The position numbers and the translations under genes were made by a program. A DNA stretch of 64,000 bases, taken from positions 71,920,001-71,984,000 of the forward strand of contig OX597820.1 in assembly GCA_951406725.2 (NCBI GenBank), written 5' to 3'. Positions 44,253-61,152 of the stretch are shown here, one piece after another. The DNA is from Octopus vulgaris. Taxonomy: Eukaryota. The stretch's first letter is position 1. Every line of letters begins with the position of its first letter. The notes beneath the pieces were generated by a model. The model saw only the letters and a list, made by a program, of their open reading frames with translations. It did no database searches and was not told where the DNA came from.

Positions 44253-44605
44253 ATATTCACTCTTCGATGTTTGCATGATTCAGATTGAGTTTGCTGAGGT
44301 AAATTTTCTATGGCTGGATGCCTTTCCTGTCCCCAATTTTCACCTGTTCTCAAGCAAGGTAATATTTCTTTCTGATCAAATATGTTTTACATGGAAGAAT
44401 GGAAATGAACAACATTATCTGTTTGATGGCGACGCTGATTTACAACCATGATGTGAAGGCAAGACTACACACCTGAATATATATGAGCATGCCAGGCTAA
44501 TAAGGGCCGGTTTACCTGTTTCAATGGTGTATATACTCCCCACCTGGATGGGACACCAGTCTGTTGCAGGATTACTCATTTTGCCAGCTGAGTGGACTGG
44601 AGCAA
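44253..44605. repeat. Donor of local duplication (C-type fragment plus D-like SINE fragment); copy at 45300-45720
   Basis: About 350 bp colinear with roughly a dozen substitutions; (CA)n is expanded in the second copy. Confidence 0.9.
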
Positions 44606-45147: not shown

Positions 45148-45206
<59 letters not shown>

Positions 45207-45846
45207 TACATGTAAAATGTAGGTTAGTGAGTTTTTTTAGAAATTTCACTATCAGTGGCCTAGCATGTATAAAAAATCAATAGACAACATATTCTCAATA
45301 TATTCACTCTTCCATGTTTGCATGATTCAGATTGAATTTGCTGAGGTAAACTTTCTATGGCTGGATGCTTTTCCTGTCCCCAATTTTCACCTGTTCTCAA
45401 GCAAGGTAATATTTCTTTCTGATCAAATATGTTTTACTTGGAAGAATGGAAATGAACAGCATTATCTGTTTGATGACGATGCTGATTTACAACCATGATG
45501 TGAAGGCAAGACTACACACACACACACACGCACACACTCTTACACACGCACGCACACACACATACACACACACACTCACACACACACCTGAATATATATG
45601 AGCATGCCAGGCTCATAAGGGTCAGTTTACCTGTTTCAATGGTGTATATACTCCCCACCTGGATGGGACACCTGTCCGTTGCAGGATTACTCATTTTGCC
45701 AGCTGAGTGGACTGGAGCAAGAGAAAACTGCCTTCAACAGACAGTTTTTACATGCTAGAAGAAGTAGTCAAAACGACCAAAACCACATTTAAGGGCAATC
45801 TTCAAAAGGAATGAAAAATAAAAACTTATACCTTGTTATTTTATTC

Positions 45847-45919
45847 TGGTCAGACCTAGATTTCAAAATTTTTTTAGCAAATAAAATAATTTGCTAGGCA
45901 AATTTCTCATCAGTAACCA
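45847..45919 (-). ncRNA. Minimal type-I hammerhead ribozyme motif
   Basis: UGGUUA-CUGAUGA-[G AAAUUU..UAGCAAAU uauuuu AUUUGCUA..AAAUUU U]-GAAA-UCUAGG-UC/UGACCA: complete core, helix I UGGUUA:UGACCA, long helix II, near-palindromic helix III AUCUAGGU, GUC cleavage triplet. Confidence 0.75.
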
Positions 45920-46433
45920 CGCCATAACACTAACATATAATTAAGAGACGAATAGCATGTGTCTCATCGTTATTCATTATAATTCTTCAAATTCCCCACG
46001 CAAGTGCAGTTTCAGTCAGTAGTAAATGAATAAATGTCGAACTAATCTTTTAAAAATTGCTAAATGCATATACATAAAATATAAGGTAGTGAGTTTTTTT
46101 TTAAATTTCACTACCAGTGGCCTAGCATGTATAAAAAGTCAATAGACAACATATTCTCAATATAAAATAGTGTACATTTAAACACAAGAGAAAACTGCCT
46201 TCAGCAGGCAGTTTTTACATGCTAGAAGAAGTAGTCAAAATGACCAAAACCACATTTAAGAGCAATCTTCAAAAGGAATGGAAAATAAAATTTTACCTTG
46301 GTATTTTATTTTATTTTATGTATATGTTTTAGCAAATTTTAAAAGATGAGTTCAGCATTTATTCCTTTACTGCCGACTGAAACTGAAGAGACATGTGCTA
46401 GTCGTCTCTTAATTATATGTTAGTGCTATGGTG

Positions 46434-46506
46434 TGGTCACTGATGAGAAATTTGCCTAGCAAATTATTTTATTTGCTAAAAAATTTTGAAATCTAAGTGT
46501 GACTGG
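46434..46506 (+). ncRNA. Second hammerhead copy, probably inactive
   Basis: TGGTCA-CTGATGA-same helix II-GAAA-TCTAAG-TG/TGACT; the triplet reads GUG rather than NUH. Confidence 0.6.
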
Positions 46507-47124
46507 AATAAAATAACAAGGTAAAAGTTTTTTTATTTTTCATTCCTTTTGAAGATTGCTCTTAAATGTGATTTTGGTCATTTTGACTACTTCTTCTAGC
46601 GTATAAAAACTGCCTGTTGAAGGCAGTTTTCTCTTGTGTTTAGATGTACATTATTTTATATATGTATATGTATATGTGTGTGTGTGTATGTATATACATT
46701 TACATATATGCACACACACACACAGATTTATATATTCTATTTCCTTGAAAGAATTTCTCCCAGGCATTAATCATTACAATTCGTCTTGGCCTAACGGTCC
46801 TTAATGTTTGTCTTCGTTGATTTTTTACTCTGTACATCCACTCTGACATTGTTCATTCTTTCCAAGCTCTAACTCTCCATGAAATTTATATTTTTAAAAT
46901 TTCTGGATGCTACTGGGTGATGAAGTTCCCTATATTGTCATTAAAAGCACGAAATAGGAGTAATAAACATTTCAACAACTGATGAGGAGTTACCTTCTTT
47001 TGATATTTTGTCCTGCACTTTTCTCTCATGTTTACGTATTTTTCATTCGTTGGTGATGTCCTGTACACAATGTATATTTTTCCTTATGTTTATTTGTGTG
47101 TGTGTGTGCATGTGTGTGTGTGTG

Positions 47125-60577: not shown

Positions 60578-61152
60578 ATTCTGCTGAGGTCGACTTTGCC
60601 TTTCATCCTTATAGGGTCAATAAAATATGTACCAGTTGTATACTAGGGATGAGCTAATTGACTGGCCCCTTTCCCCAAAATTTCGGGCCTTGCTCCTAGA
60701 GTAGAAAGGAATATTTTTAAGGTGGTGAGCAGGCAGAATTGTTAGCATACTGGGAGAAATGCTTAGTGCTATTTCGTCTGTCACTACTTTCTGAGTTCAA
60801 ATTCCATCTAGATTGACTTTGCCTTTCATCCTTTCAGGGTTGATAAATTAAGTACCAGTGAAACACTGGGATCGATGTATTCGTCTAGTCCCCACTCAAC
60901 AAATTTGAGGCCTTGTGCTTATAGAAGATACGATTATTAAGGTGGCGAGCTGGCATAAATGTTAACAAACCAGGCGAAATGCTTAGCAGTATTTTATCTG
61001 TCTTTATATTCTGAGTTCAAATTTGGCTGAGATCGATTTGCCTTTCATCCTTCCAGGGTCAATAAATTAAGTACCAGTTGCATACTGGGGTCGATCTAAT
61101 CGACTGACCCCTCACCAAAAATTTCAGGCCTTGTGCCTAGAGTAGAAAAGTA
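60578..61152 (+). mobile_element. Head-to-tail array of three SINE family B copies
   Basis: Partial copy at 60578-60712; copies start at 60721 and 60941, each after ..TTAA. Confidence 0.85.

What the first reader, a model, noticed from the sequence alone, without database searches (positions are those of the whole stretch)
45205..46660. Retrozyme-like architecture: ~466-nt hammerhead monomers in tandem, with a copy starting at the cleavage site
Seen: reading the minus strand, the array starts at 46310, equivalent to position 45845 and only 7 nt downstream of the predicted cut (45853/45852). It runs one full monomer through the ribozyme and about half a monomer further to ~45205. An inverted copy diverges from 46312. 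There is no ORF and both ends are in TA tracts. Known: metazoan non-LTR retrozymes are short hammerhead-containing tandem repeats that yield circular RNAs, and Penelope-like elements leave tandem and inverted partial copies. Inference: a non-autonomous self-cleaving retroelement family, possibly undescribed in cephalopods, copied from a ribozyme-processed or circular RNA. Part of the unit resembles old repeat F, hinting at captured host sequence.
Basis: partly seen in the sequence, partly recalled or inferred. Interest (0 to 1): 0.72.

Follow-up and report, generated by a model that had tools for sequence, protein, structure and literature searches.

The report
Old hammerhead mini-retroelement with Penelope footprints
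This is one aged copy of a protein-free 467-base jumping repeat, found at many hundreds of places in the genome, that carries a predicted self-cutting RNA and was likely pasted in by a borrowed Penelope-type enzyme; it is a known kind of element, though its copy ends pile up just after the predicted cut, a hint that the ribozyme worked in living cells.

Summary
Real, but not a tandem array of ribozymes. The locus is one two-armed insertion in a TA tract: a 1.55-unit arm (one hammerhead; interrupted by an unreported 415-nt local duplication) fused head-to-head to a 0.8-unit inverted arm whose hammerhead is likely dead. The 467-nt non-coding unit is dispersed genome-wide (569 exact hits of a 21-mer, control 0) and old (median 9.6% from the majority). 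Copies show Penelope footprints: 5' truncation, inverted arms, (TA)n targets, and two fixed 3' ends, one per arm in 18 of 24 loci. The type I hammerhead is supported by compensatory changes between subfamilies (stem I C-G to U-A; loop III palindrome CUAG to CAUG). 5' ends are about 3-fold enriched 0-10 nt after the cut (9 vs 3.1 expected), and arms that have already crossed one hammerhead mostly stop there (14 of 20 vs 17 of 62). No array of three units, no coding partner and no monomer RNA were found; circularity is unshown. Verdict: new member of a known kind (non-autonomous Penelope-like element / non-LTR retrozyme). This scan already reported similar, younger families on other DNA of this genome.

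The parts
46185..46310 (-). 5' part of the main arm: last 128 nt of the unit (unit positions q340-467), starting 7 nt after the predicted cut
   Evidence: 93% identical to 45718-45845
45718..46184 (-). One full 467-nt non-coding unit (q1 = 46184, q467 = 45718), 30% GC, several hairpins
45847..45919 (-). Type I hammerhead: stem I 45919-45914/45852-45847, CUGAUGA 45913-45907, long stem II 45906-45865, GAAA 45864-45861, 2-bp stem III with CUAG loop, GUC, predicted cut 45853/45852
   Evidence: descriptor and fold; 61-copy alignment and pair counts; cleavage not tested
45303..45717 (+). 415-nt locally templated insert, copy of 44253-44605 with expanded (CA)n, replacing q1-20; 3-5 nt microhomology at both joints; not part of the element
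   Evidence: 96% to the local donor, next best 78%
45197..45302 (-). 3' tail of the main arm (q21-124), ending at 3' end B
   Evidence: 89% to 46061-46164; B end shared by other copies
46309..46661 (+). Inverted arm (q101-467 with ~40-nt deletion, then q1-25), ending at 3' end A
   Evidence: 7.3% mismatch to the main arm over 369 columns
46434..46505 (+). Second hammerhead, in the inverted arm; GUG triplet and CUAA loop, likely inactive
   Evidence: inactivity of N17=G is recalled knowledge
45153..45201 (.). (TA)n target tract at the end of the main arm
46662..46735 (.). TA/TG-rich target tract at the end of the inverted arm

Best explanation
It is an aged copy of a dispersed, protein-free 467-nt repeat with a predicted self-cleaving hammerhead, likely inserted by a Penelope-like (probably Neptune-type) reverse transcriptase/endonuclease acting in trans. 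Shown: dispersal, no ORF, (TA)n targets, two fixed 3' ends, variable 5' ends, head-to-head arms, conserved and covarying hammerhead. Inferred mechanism: the enzyme cuts both strands of a TA tract and primes reverse transcription from each on more-than-unit RNA of one source, at two internal start points about 92 nt apart (usually one per arm); the two cDNAs meet and are joined through short self-complementary stretches. The template is likely a partly processed oligomer whose 5' end is often a hammerhead cut while the next hammerhead stays uncut (2-bp stem III with a palindromic loop is predicted to cleave only as a dimer); circles may contribute but are not needed. This copy was later interrupted by a local templated duplication and is probably inactive.
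For: 2,985 first-look candidates, 40 scored, 82-90% identical; 190 and 569 exact pattern hits, reversed controls 0. Of 87 loci, 39 are head-to-head two-armed; classifiable pairs A/B 18 (17 plus the window, reassigned by hand because of its insert), A/A 5, B/B 1, p 0.008 against random pairing; single arms A 31, B 7, other 10. Matches the Penelope signature of partial tandems, inverted 5'-truncated copy and one-sided tail (PMC8557442, passages) and both-strand extension from two internal start sites (PMC11167929, parts 1-2). Sister arms closer than arms of other loci (median 9.2% vs 12.3%; closest of all in 7 of 29, and in 7 of 8 overlaps of 190 nt or more). Hammerhead: 91% of cells paired vs 20-43% when slid; stem I pair C-G in 45, U-A in 11; loop III CUAG changes to another palindrome, CAUG, in a subfamily with 56 exact hits. 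5' ends: 9 of 55 at risk stop at q333-343, 3.1 expected, p 0.004; second-pass arms stop at q333-370 in 14 of 20 vs 17 of 62 first-pass, p 0.001, window excluded. C-terminal GIY-YIG Penelope-like elements are abundant (16,909 candidates) and end in the same TA tracts.
Against: No coding partner shares the unit: 28 of 30 loci of one Neptune-type family have no similarity and the other two are neighbouring insertions; only that one family was sampled. Rfam finds no hammerhead. 46 of 55 arms cross the cut site, so cleavage is not obligatory. The 5'-end list was curated by hand, one unclear arm dropped, two arms of one locus counted apart, and AT-rich self-complementary sequence (q340-349 with q361-370; a near-palindrome around the cut) offers another reason for junctions there; the hairpin at q437-461 also collects ends. 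Only one both-sided change underlies most of the covariation and it is inherited within a subfamily (pairs with both-sided change 6, reached by 55 of 500 shuffles). About a quarter of copies do not pair at the first stem II pair (16 of 61).
Confidence: 0.78

Rival explanations
1. Classical non-LTR retrozyme cycle: monomer RNA is cut at both ends, ligated to a 467-nt circle, and the circle is copied round by a Penelope enzyme.
For: Circularly permuted more-than-unit arms; 46 of 55 arms cross the cut site; at least three arms hold a second hammerhead core (L007, L107, L223); strongly folded unit; model in PMC7229834 (sections 14, 17).
Against: Longest arm in 173 loci is 922 nt, under two units, no trimer; no same-strand pair 400-550 nt apart among the 100 listed of 190 hammerhead hits; a circle gives no reason for second-pass arms to stop just after the cut.
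Confidence: 0.3
2. The unit is the orphaned terminal repeat plus tail of a coding Penelope element; copies are ordinary 5'-truncated insertions.
For: Same insertion footprint; retrozymes are related to pseudo-LTRs in Xenopus (bioRxiv 10.64898/2026.07.22.740005, parts 1-3).
Against: Arms long enough always run back into the same unit, never into an ORF; a motif scan of the 700 nt upstream of every arm in 173 loci gave one real hit (L014), separated from the arm by a 250-nt microsatellite and its own 3' end; no 5' flank shared between loci among 59.
Confidence: 0.08
3. The excess of 5' ends near the cut reflects a transcription start, an inherited 5' border of source copies, or microhomology, not ribozyme cleavage.
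For: Most ends lie 4-35 nt past the cut; only three arms (L175, both arms of L242) start at it; 2 of the 9 clustered ends pair with a sister end at q361; symmetric junctions at palindromes occur elsewhere (q378, q420, q438). Cleavage was dispensable in vitro for an Anolis Penelope element (PMC11167929).
Against: Microhomology should act equally on first and second pass, yet stopping differs 2.6-fold; the eleven best 11-nt windows of the scan all lie at q330-350.
Confidence: 0.4
4. Local rearrangement or chance motif.
For: The 415-nt insert is local.
Against: Hundreds of dispersed copies; family also in contigs of four other runs with different organism codes.
Confidence: 0.01

Closest known systems
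Metazoan non-LTR retrozymes (Cervera and de la Pena 2020, PMC7229834: passages, sections 14 and 17; Li, Clavereau and Pollet 2026, bioRxiv 10.64898/2026.07.22.740005: parts 1-3 of 5)
   Same: Short AT-rich non-coding unit, type I hammerhead with 1-2 bp stem III and palindromic loop, more-than-unit copies, coexistence with Penelope-like elements.
   Different: Unit slightly longer than the 150-450 bp described; almost no dimers or multimers; this locus fails the two-complete-hammerheads definition of an active retrozyme; unusually long bulged stem II; no circular RNA shown; family is old.
EN+ Penelope-like elements (structure in Craig et al. 2021, PMC8557442: passages; mechanism in Frangieh et al. 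2024, PMC11167929: parts 1-2 of 4)
   Same: Partial tandem, inverted 5'-truncated arm, optional one-sided tail, two internal start points, TA-microsatellite targets, hammerhead upstream of the tail.
   Different: No ORF; tail about 92 nt rather than 30-40; hammerhead is canonical-like rather than minimal; 5' ends are enriched after the cut, whereas cleavage was dispensable in vitro for the Anolis element.
Non-autonomous Chlamys elements such as MRC1 (PMC8557442, passage)
   Same: Non-coding Penelope-type passengers forming pseudo-LTRs and head-to-tail copies.
   Different: Those share 3' sequence with a coding family and lack canonical hammerheads; no partner found here.
Younger 360-nt and 485-495-nt hammerhead families noted by this scan in the same genome (unchecked notes)
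   Same: Two-armed insertions in TA tracts with two fixed ends.
   Different: Those are described as young with multi-unit arrays; look-up by sequence found no look-alike of this unit; relationship untested.

Membership tests
Type I hammerhead ribozyme | Core CUGANGA, GAAA, NUH with stems I-III | tested here: met
   Main arm intact with GUC; 91% of cells paired in 61 copies. Inverted arm has GUG.
Type I hammerhead ribozyme | Match to an Rfam hammerhead model | tested here: not met
   No hit at gathering score or E<=10; long stem II may explain it (inference).
Type I hammerhead ribozyme | Self-cleavage | not testable with these tools
   Only indirect: compensatory changes and 5'-end excess.
Non-LTR retrozyme | Short non-coding unit with type I hammerhead, no LTR/ORF | tested here: met
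Non-LTR retrozyme | Tandem repeats with at least two complete hammerheads | tested here: inconclusive
   Not met at this locus. In 173 loci two whole tandem hammerheads in L107 and L223, a deleted one in L007, fragments in L002 and L023; automated upper count 10 loci; no trimer.
Non-LTR retrozyme | Dispersed multi-copy family | tested here: met
Non-LTR retrozyme | Abundant linear and circular monomer RNA | tested here: inconclusive
   Low cover, no pile-up of ends in three RNA runs whose library type may lose circles.
Penelope-like insertion | Partial tandem and inverted 5'-truncated copy | tested here: met
   39 of 87 loci two-armed
Penelope-like insertion | Fixed 3' ends with optional one-sided tail; microsatellite target | tested here: met
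Autonomous Penelope-like element | RT and GIY-YIG ORF between the repeats | tested here: not met
Non-autonomous Penelope-like element | Sequence shared with a coding partner | tested here: inconclusive
   None in one Neptune-type family or the element at L254; other families not sampled.

The most novel reading that the evidence does not exclude
The family spread not as a circle but as a ribozyme-trimmed linear 1.3-1.6-mer: a dimer-dependent hammerhead cuts once to set the RNA's 5' end while the next hammerhead is carried uncut into the new copy, and the wall of 5' ends just after the cut is a genomic record of hammerhead cleavage inside the Penelope transposition cycle in vivo, kept functional through successive subfamilies by compensatory changes including a swap of the dimerisation palindrome.
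Probability: 0.35. Interest if true: 0.6.

Novelty: new member of a known kind. Interest (0 to 1): 0.36.

Why it matters
What the hammerhead does in Penelope elements and retrozymes is open: one model needs cleavage and circles (PMC4209133, PMC7229834), while the only in vitro system found cleavage dispensable (PMC11167929). A family with hundreds of countable insertion ends lets the question be tested on genome data alone, and the subfamily changes give natural test constructs for dimer-dependent cleavage. The locus itself is a decayed copy, and the class is known.

Tried and rejected
Rfam scans: no hammerhead. RNA: no RNA holder listed (no evidence either way); three raw RNA runs of organism C, 6 in 100 reads read, gave about 0-26-fold summed cover on the unit from mostly under-95% reads in both directions, with no place where many molecules begin or end; the high peak at 45639-45716 belongs to the inserted repeat. 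Small-share runs not used. Partner search: GIY-YIG fragments beside L014, L016, L041 and the RT-EN element at L247/L254 look like separate or nested insertions in the same TA tracts; a Pfam accession recalled for a Penelope domain is not in the library. An early impression of an absolute wall at the cut was dropped: several arms pass it. Twin priming on a single linear RNA fits this locus (the A arm stops near the B start) and L003 but not most pairs. nhmmer envelopes overextend into AT-rich flanks, so its count of tandem hammerheads (10 loci) is an upper bound. In one search the end at q289 of L233 is a stem II insertion variant, not a true end; correcting it does not touch the q333-343 count. 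Paper searches hammerhead+Penelope+octopus, hammerhead ribozyme+cephalopod and retrozyme+octopus (listings only) showed no description of this family; Repbase/Dfam and bioRxiv supplements could not be checked, so absence from print is not established.

Full report
Coordinates. Unit position q1 is window 46184 and q467 is 45718, read on the minus strand. The predicted cut lies between q332 and q333 (45853/45852).

Observation. The locus holds a main arm on the minus strand, q340-467 (46310-46185), q1-467 (46184-45718) and q21-124 (45302-45197), and an inverted arm on the plus strand, q101-467 with a deletion of about 40 nt plus q1-25 (46309-46661). Both outer ends run into TA-rich tracts. It is a local templated insertion and was seen in no other copy. 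Each arm has one hammerhead; a descriptor scan of the 64 kb found just these two. The main one has an intact core, a 6-bp stem I, a long bulged stem II and a 2-bp stem III with a CUAG loop before GUC; the inverted one ends in GUG and is likely dead (recalled rule). Rfam finds neither. The unit has no stop-free stretch over 40 codons and folds better than all 100 shuffles.

Family. The unit gave 2,985 candidates, of which 40 were scored at 82-90% identity. Exact patterns gave 190 hits for stem III/I and 569 for the commoner 3' end, controls 0. Thirty-two full-length copies differ from the column majority by 6-20%, median 9.6%, window 9.1%: an old family. Related sequence is in contigs of four further runs with other organism codes. 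In 173 distinct loci the longest arm is 922 nt; there is no trimer, and two whole tandem hammerheads were seen in L107 and L223 only.

Insertion footprint. 3' ends fall at two places, about q25 (A) and q110-117 (B), followed by (TA)n or related tracts. Of 87 loci 39 are head-to-head two-armed. Among 24 pairs with both ends classifiable, 18 are A/B (the window reassigned by hand), 5 A/A and 1 B/B, p 0.008; the other 15 pairs have a broken end. Single arms end at A 31, B 7, elsewhere 10 times. Sister arms are closer to each other than to other loci, though gene conversion or one dominant source could also cause this. These are the published Penelope traits: partial tandem, inverted truncated copy, tail at one end, microsatellite bias (PMC8557442, passages), both-strand extension from two internal start sites (PMC11167929, parts 1-2). 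I had noted the A and B ends before looking at earlier findings; the pairing and sister-arm tests were prompted by them.

Hammerhead under selection. In 61 copies 91% of cells pair, against 20-43% for slid controls; stem I pair 11-82 is C-G in 45 and U-A in 11, in the subfamily whose triplet is GUA instead of GUC. A third subfamily (56 exact hits) has a larger stem II and a CAUG loop, so the self-complementary ACCUAGGU becomes ACCAUGGU. This fits dimer-dependent cleavage described for short palindromic stem III (PMC4209133, passages). Each change is one inherited event, so the statistical weight is small (55 of 500 shuffles reach the number of covarying pairs).

Does the copy start at the cut? 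For this copy alone no case can be made: it starts at +7 and shares TTTTAT with the other arm. For the family I used 83 fetched stretches chosen only by the 3'-end pattern (of 569 hits), called 5' ends by anchored alignment and curated them by hand to 112 trials (duplicates and one unclear arm dropped). Nine of 55 at risk stop at q333-343, 3.1 expected, p 0.004; 46 pass. Among arms that had already crossed one hammerhead and reached q370 again, 14 of 20 stop at q333-370, against 17 of 62 on first pass, p 0.001 with the window left out, p 0.004 also leaving out loci found only by the cut-anchored query. In L242 both arms begin at the cut, as does L175. Rivals: self-complementary AT-rich sequence near the cut, a transcription start, or an inherited border of source copies. 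The first-versus-second-pass difference argues against microhomology alone, not against the other two.

Partner. No arm runs upstream into a Penelope ORF. C-terminal GIY-YIG elements with a cysteine linker (Neptune/Nematis type by the description in PMC8557442) are abundant and end in the same TA tracts, but the one family sampled shares no sequence with the unit, nor does the element nested at L247/L254. The mobilising enzyme is inferred from the footprint.

Mechanism. Shown: dispersal, footprint, conserved motif, excess of ends. Inferred: read-through RNA of more than one unit, partly cut by paired hammerheads; a Penelope enzyme cuts a TA tract on both strands, starts at A and B, and the two cDNAs are joined by microhomology. 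Circles are possible, since most arms cross the cut and a few reach a second hammerhead, but the lack of multimers and the second-pass stop favour linear oligomers. RNA data were uninformative.

Novelty. The class is described in coral, mussel, axolotl (PMC7229834, passages and sections 14, 17) and tied to Penelope repeats in vertebrates (bioRxiv 10.64898/2026.07.22.740005, parts 1-3; supplements closed). Three paper searches showed no cephalopod description. This scan has already reported younger families with the same footprint in this genome. New member of a known kind; interest 0.36.

Noticed in passing
window 45303-45717 and 44253-44605: A 415-nt piece of an old repeat was copied from 1 kb upstream into the element, with microhomology at both ends and a grown (CA)n tract: a locally templated insertion of the repair type.
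   Followed up: yes
L223, L236, L238, L242, L245, L250 (pattern): Subfamily with a unit of about 510 nt, a stem II enlarged by about 45 nt, CAUG loop, and often CUGACGA in the core.
   Followed up: partly
alignment A1, e.g. L019, L046, L049, L015: A sub-lineage changes both letters of the first stem II pair together, G-U to A-A, a non-standard closing pair.
   Followed up: no
L254 (G000:C5:5088100-5093100): A 5'-truncated Neptune-type Penelope ORF (about 590 open codons, RT to endonuclease) starts directly behind q69 of a copy, same strand, with a duplicated 27-nt piece at the junction; nested insertion or template switch, single case.
   Followed up: partly
L061-L090: The Neptune-type coding family also has two preferred 3' ends about 50-60 nt apart before TA tracts.
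   Followed up: partly
loose ends at 45913 and 46103: Other runs hold abundant relatives that share the hammerhead core/stem II and q20-82 but have a different stem I and flanks: a wider clan of related families.
   Followed up: no
L164, L194, L207, L155: Both arms of a locus often stop at the same self-complementary spot (q420, q438, q378), suggesting that the two cDNAs anneal to each other.
   Followed up: partly
window 60578-61136: 2.5 copies of a 220-nt repeat unit in tandem; unrelated to the finding.
   Followed up: no
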